From: an uncultured Actinomycetota bacterium | GTDB taxonomy: Bacteria; Actinomycetota; Actinomycetes; JAFAQI01 | Assembly (NCBI GenBank): GCA_963789615.1 | Contig: CAWBLI010000008.1 | Span: forward strand, 832,197-896,196 | Reading direction: 5' to 3' | Length of the DNA stretch: 64,000 nucleotides | Shown here: piece by piece, positions 40,429-56,509 of the stretch | Position numbering within the stretch: the stretch's first letter is position 1 | How the letters are laid out: every line of letters begins with the position of its first letter | Notes under the pieces: generated by a model | What the model was told of the DNA's origin: nothing | The model's database searches: none | Seen by the model: only the letters and a program-made list of their open reading frames with translations | Translations under genes and position numbers: made by a program

Positions 40429-40632
40429 CGATCTGCTGATCGATTTGGATATCGGGTTGTCGGTCAACCCGACGTCGAGCGTCACGAAGTGGTAGTCCGT
40501 AGCCCCGGCGAGGATCGGATGTAGGCGGCTGAACGACCGTTTGAACGGCCGTTTGAACGCGGAACGAACTTTTGATCTTGGTCCGTACGGCGCGAACGCC
40601 TCGGTCCGGAGGTAAAAGGCCAGGTCAGAGGT
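40429..40632. repeat. flank repeat A1, similar to the region 3-prime of the intact tRNA-Lys (56253-56434)
   Basis: Shared blocks: atcgg.gt.tcggtcaacccga, gtcacgaagt, ggctgaac.accgtttgaac, cgtttgaac, tgatcttggtc and aaaggccaggtcaga. Confidence 0.6.
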
Positions 40633-40677
40633 GGTGCGCCGCGAGGGACTTGAACCCCCAACCCGCTGATTACGAGT
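40633..40677 (-). repeat. copy of the 3-prime half of tRNA-Lys(CTT), att-like
   Basis: 40633-40672 is identical to 56435-56474 (discriminator, acceptor 3-prime strand, T-arm, variable loop, anticodon-stem 3-prime strand, first loop bases). One mismatch and 4 more matches follow. The 5-prime half of the tRNA is absent. Confidence 0.75.
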
Positions 40678-40690
40678 GGCCCCGACGGCT

Positions 40691-40907
40691 GTAGGCGGCT
40701 GAAGGCCAGAGCTGCCAGCAGCGTTTGTGCAGGTCAGCGCCTCGCTCCACCGCCATCGAAACCGGTTCAGTGTGTGGAGTGTTCACGGTGAACCCAGGCT
40801 GAACTCTTGATCTTGATCTTGATCTTGGTCCGGGCCGGGGCTTTCCTGTCCCAATCAGTGAGCCAGCAGCACCCCACATCTTGAACCAGTCAAGCCGAGC
40901 GATAGCC
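40691..40907. repeat. intergenic repeat B2 (~200 bp), homologous to 50927-51129
   Basis: It aligns from gtaggcggctgaaggcc... through ggagtgttcacggtgaacccaggctgaactc and tgatcttggtcc to cttgaaccagtcaagccgagcgatagcc. It contains (TGATCT)x3 where the other copies have x1. Confidence 0.7.
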
Positions 40908-40996
40908 ACTTATGCGTGTTCACTCTTTGGGCATGAGGACGTGTCGGCCCGGTGGGGTGATGCTGCTGGTGAGCCGACTGGATTCTGGAGAACCTG

Positions 40997-42385
40997 ATGC
41001 CGAGTGTCTCGTGGCCTGGCGCCTTGAGCGGGGTTCGGATGGCTGGGGAGCTGCCGGTCCGCGAGGACCTTCCGGTCGTCTTCGATGAGCTGGATTACCA
41101 GATGGCCTGTCAGGTGTACCTGTGGGCATTGCCGCTGGTGTCCTACGCACAGTGGCAGACCCAGCACAGGAACGTCTTCGGCGCGACGAACTATGACTTG
41201 GTCCAGTACCTGTCCTACCGAGACCGGCTTGGCCTGATCACGGCGAACGCGACGACGCCGTACATCCTCAACTTCATCGACCTGAGTGAGACCGGTCCAC
41301 TCGTGGTCGAGCTCCCTCCTGGCCCAACAGCTGGCGGGTTATCGGACTTCTGGCAGCGTGAGTGCGGGATCCTCGGCGAGATGGGCCCGGATCAGGGGCG
41401 TGGCGGCAGGCATCTGATCGTGCCGCCCGGAACGCCTGTCCCCGAGGTCGATGACAGCTACTACGTGCATCAGGCCAGCGGCATGAACGTCATGTTCGGG
41501 TTCCGGACCCTCGATCCCGACCGGGAGCGCTCTCGCGCCTTGGTCGACGGGGTCCGGATCTCCTCCTTCGACGGTCGCAGCTCACCTGCCACGCGGATCG
41601 TGTCTCCTGATGGCCGCAGCTGGTCCGGCGACCAGCCTCGCGGGCTGGAGTACTGGGCCCGGCTGCATGAGATCTACCAGCGGGAGATCGTCGATGAGCG
41701 GGACCGGTTCTATCTGGCGATGCTCAAGCAACTGGGCGTCGAGAAGGGAAAGCCGTTCGCGCCGGGCGATCGGCTGACCGGGATCTTGACGGCCGCTACC
41801 GCGACGGGCGAGTTGATGGCGAAGGCCAACTCGTTCGCGAAACGGTTCCCAGGTGCGACGTACTGGCCCGACCGGCAGTGGGACCTCGTCCTGCAGCTCG
41901 ATCGCTCCGACCAGCGCGGCGACAACTACGACCAGCTGCTCGAGCGAGCCGCCTGGTTCTACGAGGCGGTCAGCTTCTCCGAGGCGATGAAAAGCCAAAC
42001 TCCCGGTGCCGGTCAGGCCTACCTCGGCAGCTACACCGATGCGGACGGTGCCTGGCTCGACGGTGGCACCACCTATACGATGCATGTGCCGGCGAACCCA
42101 CCGGCGAAGCTGTTCTGGTCGTTCACGGTGTACGACGTGGACACACGTTGCCTGATCGATAATGAGCAGCAGCGCGGCGACCGAGGATCCCGCGACGCCG
42201 ACCTGGTCCCCAACCCAGACGGTTCCGTCACCCTCTACGTCGGGCCAGCCGCCCCCGAGGCCAAAGATTCCAACTGGGTGCAGACCATCCCTGGCAAACA
42301 CTGGTTTGCTTATTTCCGCTTCTACGGACCACTTGAGCCGTACTTCGACCACAGCTGGAAACTCGGCGACATCACCCCAACCTGA
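40997..42385 (+). CDS. DUF1254/DUF1214 domain-containing protein
   Basis: DELDYQMACQVYLWALPLVSY...TPYILNFIDL...GGRHLIVPPG (DUF1254-like) and ...FYEAVSFSEAMK...FWSFTVYD...NWVQTIPGKHWFAYFRFYGP (DUF1214-like). The start could be ATG 41039. Confidence 0.75.
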   Translation: MPSVSWPGALSGVRMAGELPVREDLPVVFDELDYQMACQVYLWALPLVSYAQWQTQHRNVFGATNYDLVQYLSYRDRLGLITANATTPYILNFIDLSETGPLVVELPPGPTAGGLSDFWQRECGILGEMGPDQGRGGRHLIVPPGTPVPEVDDSYYVHQASGMNVMFGFRTLDPDRERSRALVDGVRISSFDGRSSPATRIVSPDGRSWSGDQPRGLEYWARLHEIYQREIVDERDRFYLAMLKQLGVEKGKPFAPGDRLTGILTAATATGELMAKANSFAKRFPGATYWPDRQWDLVLQLDRSDQRGDNYDQLLERAAWFYEAVSFSEAMKSQTPGAGQAYLGSYTDADGAWLDGGTTYTMHVPANPPAKLFWSFTVYDVDTRCLIDNEQQRGDRGSRDADLVPNPDGSVTLYVGPAAPEAKDSNWVQTIPGKHWFAYFRFYGPLEPYFDHSWKLGDITPT

Positions 42386-42412
42386 CCGAGCCCAGGCGAA
42401 GCGAACCGCACG

Positions 42413-42440
42413 AGAGCGGGTTCTGCGCGCTAACGCCACC
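42413..42440. repeat. copy of the ~27-nt GC-rich intergenic repeat
   Basis: agagcgggttctgcgcgctaacgccacc lies just after the stop at 42385. Confidence 0.5.
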
Positions 42441-54666: not shown

Positions 54667-54741
54667 CGCCGGTCGGCGGTGACGTTTGAGAGTGACGGCC
54701 GAGAACACCAGATCACAAGTAACAACTGGGGGAGTACCCAC

Positions 54742-55062
54742 ATGAGCGCATACGTAGTTATCGCATTCACAGTCAAGGACCCGGATGTTTATCGAGACAA
54801 ATACGCCCCCATCGCTGGCCAGACAGCCAAAGAGCATGGAGGTGAGGTAATCGCCGCCGGTAACTGGGAAGTCCTGCACGGCGATGGCTCGCTCACTTCA
54901 GGAGCACTCGTGCGGTTTACCGACCGTGAGACGGCCCTCAGTTGGTACAACTCGCCCGAATATCAGCAGCTAATCGATGTCCGAAGCGTCGCGATGGACG
55001 CCCGCTTCAGCTTGCTCGATGGCCTCCCCACGCCCACAGAAGCCGCGAGGGAGTCCGAATGA
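54742..55062 (+). CDS. DUF1330 domain-containing protein
   Basis: MSAYVVIAFTVKDPDVYRDKYAPIAGQTAKEHGGEVIAAG...FTDRETALSWYNSPEYQQL. ATG 54742 follows GGGGGAG. Confidence 0.8.
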   Translation: MSAYVVIAFTVKDPDVYRDKYAPIAGQTAKEHGGEVIAAGNWEVLHGDGSLTSGALVRFTDRETALSWYNSPEYQQLIDVRSVAMDARFSLLDGLPTPTEAARESE

Positions 55063-55979
55063 GCGCGGTCCCGAGAAAGACGGCGCTCATCACGGGCGCC
55101 AACGCCGGGCTCGGCAAGGAGGTGGCCCGGCAACTGGCCTTACGTCCCGAGTTCGCCCGGATATATCTGGCGTGCCGGAACCGAGATCGAGCGAAGGCGG
55201 CAAAGGCCGAGCTTGAGTCCGCGACCGACCGGAAGATCTTCGACACCGTCCTCATGGACGTTGCCGATCAGAACTCGGTCCGCGCCGGCCTGGCGTCCTT
55301 CGAAGGGACGATCGACGCGCTGGTCATGAACGCGGGTGTCATCGGCCCGCAGACGCTGGACCTGACGGCAGACGGGGTCACCACCGTGTTCGCTACGAAT
55401 GTCCTTGGGCACGCCATCCTTCTCGAAGGGCTCCTGGCCGAGGGCCGCCTTGGCGAGGTTGCGGTGTTCGTCGGAAGTGAAGCAGTCGCCGGAGTTCCGA
55501 AGTTGGGGATGAAGCGGCCATCGTTCGTCTCAACCTCCGCCGACGAGCTCGCCACCGTCATCGACGGCAGCTACTTCGCCAGCCGAAAGCCTGACTTCAA
55601 CCTGGCCTTCGCGCAGGCGAAGTACATCGGCGCCCTCTGGATGGCCTCCCTCGCACGCCAGCACCCCGACCGTCGATTCATCACCGTGAGCCCCGGGAAC
55701 ACCACCGGCACCGGAGCCGCCAGCGGCCTTCCCCTGCCGATGCGGGTAGCGGCAAAGTACGTTATGCCCGCCCTAGGTCTCTCCCACAAGCTCGACGTGG
55801 GCGCGAAGCGGCTCGTCGACGGTGTCACCGACCGCGCCCTGTCCAGCGGCGTGTTCTACGCCAGCCCGCCGAACAAGTTGAAGGGTCCGTTGGTCAACCA
55901 GGCGGACATCTTGCCCGATTTGGCCAACACCGCGTTTCAGGACCACGCCAACGAGGCCATCCACCGCTTCATTTCATGA
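55059..55979 (+). CDS. SDR-family oxidoreductase (atypical, long)
   Basis: ALITGANAGLGKEVARQLA is the Rossmann motif. The ATG overlaps the DUF1330 stop (ATGA). Confidence 0.8.
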   Translation: MSAVPRKTALITGANAGLGKEVARQLALRPEFARIYLACRNRDRAKAAKAELESATDRKIFDTVLMDVADQNSVRAGLASFEGTIDALVMNAGVIGPQTLDLTADGVTTVFATNVLGHAILLEGLLAEGRLGEVAVFVGSEAVAGVPKLGMKRPSFVSTSADELATVIDGSYFASRKPDFNLAFAQAKYIGALWMASLARQHPDRRFITVSPGNTTGTGAASGLPLPMRVAAKYVMPALGLSHKLDVGAKRLVDGVTDRALSSGVFYASPPNKLKGPLVNQADILPDLANTAFQDHANEAIHRFIS

Positions 55980-56252
55980 CGGCACCTCGACCCGGGGACA
56001 CGTTTCACCTTGATCTCGGCGGGACTGCGATCGCCGGCCGCTCGCGTTTCGGTAGAGCGCTCACAGATGCCGATCAGGTAGGGGCCAGGTGCCCGGTCCG
56101 CGACAGCCTGGCGCTGGACCTCCTAGAAGCCCTACGCCCAAAGGTCGAGCAGCACGTCCTCGACCTGCTCGCGACCCGCCACTTCACGACCCGGACTCTC
56201 ACAAAAGCCGGCAGCGAGCCTGGCGGATCCTCGCGCTCGGAGCGTTCGTTTT

Positions 56253-56434
56253 CGATCTGAACATCGGGGTCTCGGTCAACCCGATGCGACTGTCACGAAG
56301 TCGTGGCCCAGGCGAAGAGACGGGGTGAGACGGCTGAACAACCGTTTGAACCGTTTGAACCCAAAATAAGCTCATGATCTTGGTCGACGTCGTCGCGGAC
56401 CGCTCTTCAGGAGCTGAAAGGCCAGGTCAGAATG
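56253..56434. repeat. flank repeat A2 immediately 3-prime of tRNA-Lys, similar to 40429-40632
   Basis: See A1. It contains a tandem ccgtttgaa x2 (56342-56360) and tgatcttggtc. Confidence 0.6.
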
Positions 56435-56436
56435 GG

Positions 56437-56509
56437 TGCGCCGCGAGGGACTTGAACCCCCAACCCGCTGATTAAGAGTCAGCTGCTCTGCCAGTTGAGC
56501 TAGCGGCGC
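56437..56509 (-). tRNA. tRNA-Lys (anticodon CTT)
   Basis: 73 nt: GCGCCGC TA GCTC AACTGGCA GAGC A GCTGA CTCTTAA TCAGC GGGTT GGGGG TTCAAGT CCCTC GCGGCGC A. The acceptor, D and anticodon stems are perfect, and the T stem has one G-U pair. CCA is not encoded. Confidence 0.95.

What the first reader, a model, noticed from the sequence alone, without database searches (positions are those of the whole stretch)
40429..56509. Perfect 40-nt copy of the tRNA-Lys(CTT) 3-prime half lies 15.8 kb from the intact gene: an integrase-less, decayed island
40633-40672 is identical to 56435-56474. The copy runs from the discriminator base to the anticodon loop of the intact tRNA-Lys, in the same orientation. One mismatch and 4 more matching bases follow. 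This is the classic footprint of site-specific integration into a tRNA gene (attL/attR). About 200 bp on the 3-prime side of both copies is also patchily similar (A1/A2 repeats). The enclosed 15.8 kb carries accessory-type genes: DUF1254/1214, RidA, a GMC dehydrogenase set, an enolase-family enzyme, two TetR, two SDR, SRPBCC and DUF1330. It also has a high density of broken genes. I recognise no integrase, excisionase, relaxase or transposase anywhere in the window, so the element would be immobilised.
Basis: partly seen in the sequence, partly recalled or inferred. Interest (0 to 1): 0.7.

Follow-up and report, generated by a model that had tools for sequence, protein, structure and literature searches.

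The report
Integrase-less island remnant at tRNA-Lys
The 40-base copy is the displaced tail of the lysine tRNA gene, left when foreign DNA inserted into that gene by site-specific recombination; this is an ordinary kind of genomic island that has since lost its own recombinase.

Summary
40633-40672 is identical to the 3' part of the only tRNA gene in the window, tRNA-Lys(CTT) at 56435-56509 on the minus strand. One mismatch and 4 more matches follow, in the same orientation. It is not a second tRNA gene.

- Three phage contigs carry the same 48 nt as an attP, with no tRNA gene and a tyrosine integrase beside it.
- A metagenome scan found 36 tRNA-Lys fragments that end at the same anticodon-loop position, and related loci where an integrase abuts the site.
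- The closest relative with a long contig (L014) runs from the paa cluster through PaaI and tRNA-Lys straight to the genes at window 30.68 kb. It lacks everything between.
- Pfam, PHROGs and a family-specific integrase model found no integrase, transposase or phage gene in the insert. Broken genes are present.

Refinements.
- The extra DNA relative to L014 is 25.7 kb (30706-56434), not 15.8 kb.
- The repeat-bounded part is composite. A second arm copy lies at 50.9 kb.
- The repeat unit is about 235 nt (flank A plus core).
- There is no compositional break.

Verdict: an ordinary, decayed member of a known kind.

The parts
56435..56509 (-). Intact tRNA-Lys(CTT). It is the integration target, regenerated at the island's proximal end.
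   Evidence: ARAGORN. Rfam tRNA model, 66.3 bits.
40633..40677 (-). Displaced 3' fragment of tRNA-Lys (core copy). 40 nt are exact; one mismatch and 4 more matches follow. It ends in the anticodon loop.
   Evidence: 44/45, E 1.5e-13. Not called as a tRNA. It ends where 36 metagenomic fragments and 3 phage attP sites end.
40440..40632 (.). Flank A1, on the trailer side of the fragment. It carries 3 co-oriented TGAAC repeats, one TGATCTTGG and the trailer AAAGGCCAGGTCAG.
   Evidence: 74% identical to A2 over 193 nt. Matches the tRNA-Lys trailer flank of syntenic relative L016, E 7e-8. Motif counts.
56252..56434 (.). Flank A2, on the trailer side of the intact tRNA and inside the island. It has the same motif set as A1.
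   Evidence: (matches L084, L016 and L083, E 5e-7 to 5e-6).
40678..40907 (.). Arm B1, on the island side of the fragment. It has a GTTCAC-G-GTGAAC palindrome, GGCTGAAC, (TTGATC)x3 and the 11-mer GCAGGTCAGCG 96 nt from the core start.
   Evidence: 72% identical to B2 over 246 nt, E 2e-35. nhmmer result. The 11-mer sits at the same offset in 6 metagenomic fragment arms and in none of 22 intact tRNA loci.
50901..51129 (.). Arm B2, a second copy of B that keeps only the last 13 nt of the core (GCTGATTGGGAGT). It marks an internal junction, so the 15.8 kb is composite.
50751..50806 (-). tRNA-Arg(CCG)-like piece without a D arm, about 95 nt from B2.
   Evidence: Rfam tRNA model, 18.6 bits, E 0.47, below threshold. 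Not called by ARAGORN.
40997..50395 (+). Cargo block 1: DUF1254/DUF1214 (40997-42385); RidA (42974-43399, minus strand); a TPP-dependent enzyme split by a frameshift (44142-45899 and 45833-46618); gluconate 2-dehydrogenase subunit 3 (46615-47634); GMC oxidoreductase (about 47770-49301); MR/MLE enolase-family enzyme (49298-50395).
   Evidence: Pfam.
51173..56260 (.). Cargo block 2: SRPBCC (51173-51718, minus); TetR (52048-52677, minus); a LysR substrate-domain fragment (within 52660-53230, minus); TetR (53216-53818, minus); SDR (53914-54666, plus); SDR (54942-55979, plus); a 94-aa ORF of unknown function (55976-56260, plus).
   Evidence: Pfam. PHROGs found nothing.
30706..40439 (.). Further 9.7 kb that L014 lacks: an MFS fragment, hemerythrin, NmrA-like, MarR, unknown ORFs, GT4 glycosyltransferase, fatty-acid desaturase and AT3-SGNH acyltransferase. 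No att remnant is present at its outer end. It is either an older island or lineage-specific DNA.
   Evidence: tblastx against L014. Boundary alignment. Pfam. No copy of A, core or B near 30.7 kb.
29594..30640 (-). PAS-GerE regulator, the first gene on the far side that is syntenic with L014.
56510..56986 (+). PaaI-type thioesterase, the chromosomal flank on the 5' side of the tRNA. The PaaI-tRNA-Lys adjacency is conserved in L014, L016 and L083.
   Evidence: Pfam. Synteny.
763..808 (.). Isolated 45-nt copy of the B-type motif, far outside the island.
   Evidence: 87-90% identity; E 6e-8.

Best explanation
The 40-nt copy is the displaced 3' fragment of tRNA-Lys(CTT). It was left by site-specific integration of foreign DNA into the tRNA gene, carried out by a lambda-type tyrosine integrase with crossover in the anticodon loop. 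The incoming DNA brought its own copy of the tRNA's 3' 45 nt plus trailer. That copy now completes the functional gene at 56435-56509, and the original 3' part sits at 40633-40677.

The DNA between them (40678-56434) is what remains of at least two such elements. Their junction is marked by arm B2 at 50.9 kb. The integrase and every mobility gene have been lost. Metabolic and regulatory cargo and several broken genes remain.

The site is a hot spot. Relative to the nearest long relative, this genome carries 25.7 kb of extra DNA at the tRNA (30706-56434). It is not resolved whether the outer 9.7 kb is a third, older element or ordinary lineage-specific DNA.

What is shown: the repeat, the absence of the segment from a relative, use of this core as attP by integrase-bearing elements, and the absence of an integrase here. 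What is inferred: the historical order of events and present immobility.
For: - Exact 40-nt (44/45) direct repeat of the tRNA 3' part, with identity dropping sharply at the anticodon loop.
- Phage contigs L011-L013 hold the same 48 nt without a tRNA gene, between GGCTACACC arm repeats. A PF00589 integrase lies about 140 nt away.
- The metagenome scan found 26 intact tRNA-Lys genes and 36 fragments, all ending at ...ATTAAGAG.
- Tyrosine integrases abut the trailer side of the core in L059, L040 and L047; in L080 one lies about 4 kb inside the island. Those of L059 and L040 carry the arm-DNA-binding domain.
- L063 (intact tRNA) shares at least 1.5 kb of flank at 99.9-100% identity with fragment loci that carry different right arms.
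- L014 is collinear on both sides and lacks 30706-56434.
- L014, L016, L084 and the window each have different DNA after the tRNA.
- Both arms A and B carry co-oriented TGAAC repeats: 13 in 867 nt against 0.74 expected.
- No integrase, transposase or phage family is found in the insert. The family-specific integrase HMM scores at best E 0.16 anywhere in the window.
Against: - There is no compositional break. Leave-one-out tetranucleotide distance gives p = 0.09 for 40.4-56.4 kb and 0.55 for 30.7-40.4 kb. GC3 is 0.79 against 0.81.
- Flank A is duplicated together with the core. A simple attL/attR pair does not predict this. It requires that the element carried a diverged copy of the trailer region, or that the array is tandem.
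- The outer boundary at 30.7 kb has no att remnant.
- L014 is only about 88% identical in PaaE and has a different tRNA-Lys allele, so a deletion in L014 cannot be excluded.
- Whole-arm homology of B to metagenomic arms was not detected.
- The cargo is ordinary metabolism. The DUF1254/1214 homologue of Rhodococcus spelaei sits in a core cell-wall cluster.
Confidence: 0.8

Rival explanations
1. The whole 25.7 kb (30706-56434) is a decayed tandem array of three elements, each ending in A-core: 30.7-40.68 kb, 40.68-50.9 kb and 50.9-56.43 kb. On this reading A1 is the arm of the oldest element rather than chromosomal DNA, and the outermost junction has been deleted.
For: L014 lacks the whole 25.7 kb. 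A-core-B at 40.44-40.91 kb looks like a complete attP-type junction, with the same motifs on both arms. Tandem fragments occur elsewhere: L060 has two fragments 3.1 kb apart, and L023 and L042 come from one contig. Many metagenomic fragments have an integrase, or a C-terminal remnant of one, on their trailer side, so they are internal junctions. The only A-less relative, L014, is also the one with no extra DNA.
Against: No core, A or B remnant lies near 30.7 kb. No integrase remnant lies to the left of A1. The composition of 30.7-40.4 kb cannot be told apart from the flanks. The GT4 and AT3-SGNH gene pair is also adjacent in a distant relative, L006, which suggests an ordinary envelope module.
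Confidence: 0.35
2. No mobile element was involved. An old segmental duplication of the tRNA-Lys locus (trailer, gene and upstream) produced two genes, and one decayed. The DNA between them is ordinary chromosome.
For: Similarity extends beyond the core on the trailer side (A, 74%). It extends weakly on the other side too: 17/24 matches to the acceptor/D region after a 9-nt gap (read by eye), and a tRNA-like fold at 27 bits. There is no integrase and no compositional break.
Against: Uniform decay cannot give 44/45 identity next to 74% or less. The sharp edge falls exactly where phage attP sites and 36 independent fragments end. The similarity to the 5' half and upstream region is not significant (nhmmer E 7.7). 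L014 lacks the segment. Arm B recurs at 50.9 kb and at 0.8 kb.
Confidence: 0.08
3. The arrangement is an assembly artefact of a metagenome-assembled contig: strain variants were joined at the repeated A-core segment.
For: The source is an uncultured Mycobacteriales/Frankiales-type MAG contig of 960 kb. Contigs of relatives such as L083 break right after the tRNA.
Against: The two A copies differ by 26%, so they are not collapsible repeats. Both junctions have unique sequence on each side. The same architecture occurs in independent assemblies.
Confidence: 0.03

Closest known systems
tDNA-integrated genomic islands as defined by Islander (Hudson, Lau and Williams 2015, PMC4383910)
   Same: An intact tRNA gene lies at one end and its displaced 3' fragment lies in direct orientation at the other. 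The site is of the anticodon-centred attachment class. Tandem arrays at one tDNA are known; the paper lists 125 tandems of two or more.
   Different: Islander requires an integrase gene inside each island, and none is present here. The identity block continues about 20 nt into the trailer, and a diverged flank of about 190 nt is duplicated as well.
Actinobacteriophage tyrosine-integrase attP/attB systems overlapping tRNA genes (30-45 bp common core; introduction of PMC10865867)
   Same: [quoted passage not shown] Phage contigs L011-L013 use this very sequence, with arm repeats on both sides and an integrase beside it.
   Different: There are no phage genes here (PHROGs). Arms A and B are unrelated to the phage arms. 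The cargo is metabolic.
CIMEs, the cis-mobilisable elements of the ICESt1/ICESt3 family in Streptococcus (Pavlovic, Bellanger and colleagues; from my own knowledge, not read here)
   Same: Segments bounded by att sites, lacking integrase and transfer genes, sitting in tandem with related elements at one site.
   Different: No helper element or integrase is known for this genome. Mobilisation was not tested. The phylum and the integrase lineage differ.
Actinomycete integrative and conjugative elements (pSAM2, SLP1 and others; from my own knowledge)
   Same: Actinobacterial hosts. They integrate into the 3' end of tRNA genes by tyrosine integrases with arm-type sites.
   Different: No int, xis, rep or FtsK-like tra gene is found anywhere in the insert.

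Membership tests
tDNA-integrated genomic island (Islander definition) | Intact tRNA/tmRNA gene at one end | tested here: met
   tRNA-Lys(CTT) at 56435-56509.
tDNA-integrated genomic island (Islander definition) | Displaced fragment of the same tDNA, in direct orientation, at the other end | tested here: met
   40633-40677, 44/45 identity, same strand.
tDNA-integrated genomic island (Islander definition) | Fragment ends at a canonical crossover sublocation (anticodon loop or T loop) | tested here: met
   Identity ends in the anticodon loop, as in 3 phage attP sites and 36 metagenomic fragments.
tDNA-integrated genomic island (Islander definition) | Tyrosine integrase gene inside the island | tested here: not met
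   Pfam on all ORFs and on the six-frame translation of unassigned stretches found none. The family-specific integrase HMM scores at best E 0.16.
tDNA-integrated genomic island (Islander definition) | Absent from a related genome (unoccupied site) | tested here: met
   L014 goes from tRNA-Lys straight to the homologue of window 30.68 kb. Caveats: the missing segment is 25.7 kb, and L014 is only about 88% identical in PaaE.
Prophage | Phage structural, replication or lysis genes | tested here: not met
   PHROGs gave no credible match. The single hit, E 1e-4, is on a doubtful ORF. Pfam shows metabolic and regulatory genes only.
Integrative conjugative element / AICE | Integrase together with transfer (FtsK-like Tra or T4SS) and replication genes | tested here: not met
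   None found by Pfam.
CIME-type cis/trans-mobilisable element | Bounded by att sites and devoid of its own recombination and transfer modules | tested here: met
   Core copies lie at both ends with arms A and B. No integrase is present.
CIME-type cis/trans-mobilisable element | Excision or mobilisation by the integrase of a related element | not testable with these tools
   This needs the rest of the genome and read data or an experiment.
Second functional tRNA-Lys gene | Complete cloverleaf recognised by tRNA finders | tested here: not met
   ARAGORN and the Rfam tRNA model do not call it. Only a D-arm-less tRNA-like match of 27 bits to another model is found.

The most novel reading that the evidence does not exclude
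The A-core-B units are not dead scars. They would be working attachment sites of integrase-less cargo cassettes that are excised and re-inserted in trans by a tyrosine integrase encoded elsewhere in the genome or on a passing element. On this reading tRNA-Lys(CTT) in these uncultured actinomycetes acts as a cassette-accumulating locus. Three things would fit. The TGAAC/TGATCTTGG arm motifs are conserved in both copies and in relatives. The core is perfectly preserved although the flanks differ by 26%. Integrase-less fragment-bounded segments recur in metagenomes (for example L060).
Probability: 0.12. Interest if true: 0.55.

Novelty: new member of a known kind. Interest (0 to 1): 0.3.

Why it matters
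The result marks 40.7-56.4 kb, and probably 30.7-56.4 kb, as accessory, horizontally acquired DNA in an uncultured Mycobacteriales/Frankiales-type genome. That matters for annotation and for pangenome work. It also gives a worked example of an island that integrase-dependent finders such as Islander would miss.

The metagenome survey adds a modest general point. The 3' 44-48 nt of tRNA-Lys(CTT), together with its trailer, is a heavily used attachment site in soil actinomycetes, with both integrase-bearing and integrase-less occupants. No new mechanism is needed to explain any of this.

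Tried and rejected
- PaaI as the query for the single genome-contig scan returned only 51-53% relatives with no tRNA. That scan was wasted.
- Exact look-ups of window proteins (PaaI, PaaE, P0001) found no record.
- The neighbourhoods of AT3-SGNH homologues (L005, L006, L009, L010) show no synteny and no tRNA, so they could not serve as an empty-site test.
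- Searching 501 nt around the 40.6-kb copy (40400-40900) against GenBank phages hit only phage-borne tRNA-Lys genes.
- The B motif, the trailer-plus-core pattern and the commoner tRNA allele are all absent from IMG/VR.
- nhmmer with B1 or B2, and with a profile of 13 metagenomic right arms, found no whole-arm homology. Only a position-specific 11-mer is shared.
- Tetranucleotide composition and GC3 show no significant break.
- PHROGs on the unknown ORFs found nothing credible.
- The idea that B begins with a decayed tRNA 5' half plus promoter was considered but is not statistically supported (E 7.7).
- The DUF1254/1214 context in Rhodococcus spelaei is a core cell-wall cluster, with no island signal.
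- The weak Cas1 match of the 94-aa ORF (E 0.001, below cut-off) was dismissed.

Full report
**1. The observation**

The window holds one tRNA gene, tRNA-Lys(CTT), at 56435-56509 on the minus strand (ARAGORN; Rfam, 66 bits). Reading both places and aligning them shows that 40633-40672 is identical to 56435-56474. A single C/A mismatch follows, then GAGT in both. BLAST inside the window gives 44/45 identity, E 1.5e-13. The copy covers the 3' acceptor strand, the T arm and the 3' side of the anticodon arm, and it stops in the anticodon loop. It has the same orientation as the gene. No tRNA finder calls it. At a relaxed threshold it gives only a D-arm-less tRNA-like match (27 bits). I call these flanks A1 and A2.

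**2. Further repeats**

I call it arm B.
- B1 (40665-40907) matches B2 (50901-51129) at 72% over 246 nt, E 2e-35.
- B2 keeps only the last 13 nt of the core.
- A 45-nt piece of B also occurs at 763-808.

About 95 nt from B2 lies a tRNA-Arg(CCG)-like piece without a D arm, at 50751-50806 (18.6 bits, below threshold).

A and B share a co-oriented module made of TGAAC repeats and one TGATCTTGG. There are 13 TGAAC in the 867 nt of the four arms against 0.74 expected. A and B cross-hit weakly in nhmmer. This resembles arm-type integrase sites on both arms of an attP. In the phage contigs described below, GGCTACACC repeats flank the same core. Binding was not tested.

**3. Gene content**

Between the repeats, Pfam finds the following:
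- DUF1254/DUF1214;
- RidA;
- a TPP-dependent enzyme split between two frames;
- gluconate 2-dehydrogenase subunit 3 and a GMC oxidoreductase;
- an MR/MLE enzyme;
- SRPBCC;
- two TetR regulators and a LysR fragment;
- two SDRs;
- a 94-aa ORF of unknown function.

DUF1330 was not confirmed.

No integrase was found by any of these tests:
- a six-frame screen of all unassigned stretches of 30.7-56.4 kb found no integrase, recombinase or transposase;
- PHROGs found nothing credible;
- the main ORFs of the rest of the window are chromosomal genes, with no integrase: dnaK-grpE-dnaJ, clpB, kinases and regulators on one side and the paa cluster on the other;
- an HMM built from ten integrases found next to this very core in other loci scores at best E 0.16 anywhere in the window.

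**4. Is this core a real attachment site?**

Three IMG/VR phage contigs (L011-L013) contain the exact 40-mer. Forty-eight nt are identical to the intact gene. They carry no tRNA gene. A PF00589 tyrosine integrase lies about 140 nt away, and a WhiB gene is on the same contig.

A metagenome scan for the trailer plus the start of the core returned 66 loci. They hold 26 intact tRNA-Lys genes and 36 fragments, and in every fragment the identity stops at ...ATTAAGAG in the anticodon loop.

Integrases are present in several of these loci.
- Full-length tyrosine integrases abut the trailer side and read towards the core in L059 and L047, which have an intact tRNA, and in L040, which has a fragment. 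Those of L059 and L040 carry the arm-DNA-binding domain.
- In L080 an integrase lies 4 kb inside the island.
- Shorter pieces with the same placement lie next to the core in L069, L061, L021, L035 and L027.

L063 (intact tRNA) shares at least 1.5 kb of flank at 99.9-100% identity with the fragment loci L034, L041, L068 and L078, which carry at least two different right arms. Insertion at this exact point is therefore polymorphic in nature.

The genes next to about 14 fragments are typical cargo: ABC-2, MMPL, STAND, MazE, AbiEii, DUF4143 and an IS66 piece. L060 has two fragments 3.1 kb apart with no integrase between them.

This matches the textbook arrangement. [quoted passage not shown] A regenerated tDNA and its displaced fragment mark the ends of an island (PMC4383910).

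**5. Relatives**

PaaE homologues gave syntenic contigs. L014 (88% PaaE identity) is collinear with window 63996-56435, through the paa genes, PaaI and tRNA-Lys. It then continues with window 30683-24370: PAS-GerE, GerE, GAF-EAL, MerR and onwards (tblastx; tRNA). The homology resumes at about 30706. L014 therefore shows a tRNA-Lys site without the segment, but the missing DNA is 25.7 kb, not 15.8 kb.

The additional 9.7 kb (30706-40439) encodes an MFS fragment, hemerythrin, NmrA, MarR, unknown ORFs, GT4, a desaturase and AT3-SGNH. Its outer end has no remnant of A, core or B.

Other relatives are also informative. In L016 and L083 the PaaI-tRNA-Lys adjacency is conserved with the same tRNA allele as the window. 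Both carry an A-type flank, as does L084. Beyond that flank, L016 has a CoA-transferase gene with no counterpart in the window, L084 has an IS30-type transposase, and the L083 contig ends 72 nt past the tRNA. Where it can be read, the DNA beyond the trailer differs in every genome, which is the mark of a hot spot.

**6. Composition**

Leave-one-out tetranucleotide distances and GC3 do not separate the insert from the flanks. The p values are 0.09 for 40.4-56.4 kb and 0.55 for 30.7-40.4 kb. GC3 is 0.79 against 0.81. The DNA is either old enough to have ameliorated or came from a similar actinomycete. The DUF1254/1214 protein is about 75-82% identical to proteins from very different actinobacteria, and 74% identical to one from a Microvirga. 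This fits horizontal spread but is not decisive. In Rhodococcus spelaei the homologue sits in a core cell-wall cluster.

**7. Explanation**

The best reading is that an element with a lambda-type tyrosine integrase recombined with tRNA-Lys in the anticodon loop. The element's copy of the 3' 45 nt and trailer now completes the gene, and the displaced original lies at 40633-40677. In related intact elements the integrase sits directly on the trailer side of the core. Here that position, to the left of A2, holds an SDR gene and a 94-aa ORF, so the integrase has been deleted. B2, with its core stub at 50.9 kb, shows that the 15.8 kb derives from at least two elements.

The duplication of flank A has two possible explanations.
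- The element's attP carried a diverged copy of the trailer region. This is plausible because these elements must supply the tRNA's 3' trailer, and because the trailer AAAGGCCAGGTCAG is also kept in the relatives found through PaaE (L014, L016), which were not selected on it.
- Alternatively, 30.7-40.4 kb is an older member of a tandem array.

I could not decide between them.

The rivals are much less likely. A plain duplication of the tRNA locus cannot give a 44/45 block beside flanks of 74% or less that ends exactly at the canonical crossover point. An assembly artefact is unlikely because the A copies differ by 26% and the same architecture recurs in independent assemblies.

**8. Verdict**

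This is a decayed, integrase-less member of the well-known class of tRNA-integrated genomic islands. Interest is low to moderate.

The only route to something newer is that the conserved A-core-B units are still used in trans by an integrase encoded elsewhere. I rate this at about 0.12. Excision-junction reads would test it directly.

Noticed in passing
window 50751-50806 (minus strand): tRNA-Arg(CCG)-like sequence with acceptor, anticodon and T arms but no D arm. It scores 18.6 bits with the Rfam tRNA model and is not called by ARAGORN. It lies about 95 nt from arm B2 and may be the remnant of another attachment site.
   Followed up: partly
window 763-808: Isolated 45-nt copy of the B-arm motif (GGAGTGTTCACGGCGAACCCGGGCTGACCTTTGATCTTGG). 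It lies between an alpha/beta-hydrolase gene and the start of a membrane-protein gene, 40 kb from the island.
   Followed up: partly
window 1781-1818, 3179-3216, 5577-5614, 42412-42440: GC-rich dispersed repeat of 29-35 nt (GAGCGCCRGCTCTGCGCGCTRGCGCC). One copy lies just after the DUF1254/1214 gene inside the island. It may be a REP- or terminator-like element.
   Followed up: no
window 40806-40823: Arm B1 has three tandem TTGATC units where B2, A1 and A2 have one. This is a small expansion inside the conserved TGATCTTGG motif.
   Followed up: no
window 44142-46618; 52660-53230; about 30.8 kb: Broken genes: a TPP-dependent enzyme whose N/M and C domains lie in two overlapping frames; a LysR substrate-binding fragment on the minus strand; and a short MFS fragment at the outer boundary.
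   Followed up: partly
window 18285-19592: One open reading frame combines DnaJ, DnaJ_C and a C-terminal MerR_2 (HspR-like) domain. This is either a dnaJ-hspR fusion or a missed stop or frameshift in the dnaK operon.
   Followed up: no
L063 compared with L034, L041, L068 and L078: The same trailer-side flank (at least 1.5 kb, 99.9-100% identical) adjoins an intact tRNA-Lys in L063. In the other loci it adjoins a tRNA-Lys fragment followed by at least two different island arms. This is a natural insertion polymorphism at the same crossover point.
   Followed up: partly
L060 5739 and 8820; L023 and L042 (one contig): Two tRNA-Lys fragments lie in tandem on one contig. In L060 they are 3.1 kb apart, with only short or broken ORFs and no integrase between them.
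   Followed up: partly
L059 3757-5178; L040 1015-2520; L047 11-1582: The integrase reading frames run through the trailer into the tRNA 3' part, so the att core overlaps the 3' end of int in this element family.
   Followed up: partly
L084 6198-7238: An IS30-type (HTH_38 + rve) transposase gene lies directly after the A flank in a syntenic relative, about 230 nt beyond the PaaI gene.
   Followed up: no
L068, right arm of the fragment: The low-GC right arm contains a second tRNA-like 3' end (GGGCGGCGGGAATCGAACCCGC) about 50 nt from the tRNA-Lys fragment.
   Followed up: no
window 40997-42385: The DUF1254/DUF1214 protein is about 75-82% identical to proteins from very different actinobacteria, and 74% identical to one from a Microvirga. 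This flat identity profile suggests wide horizontal spread.
   Followed up: partly
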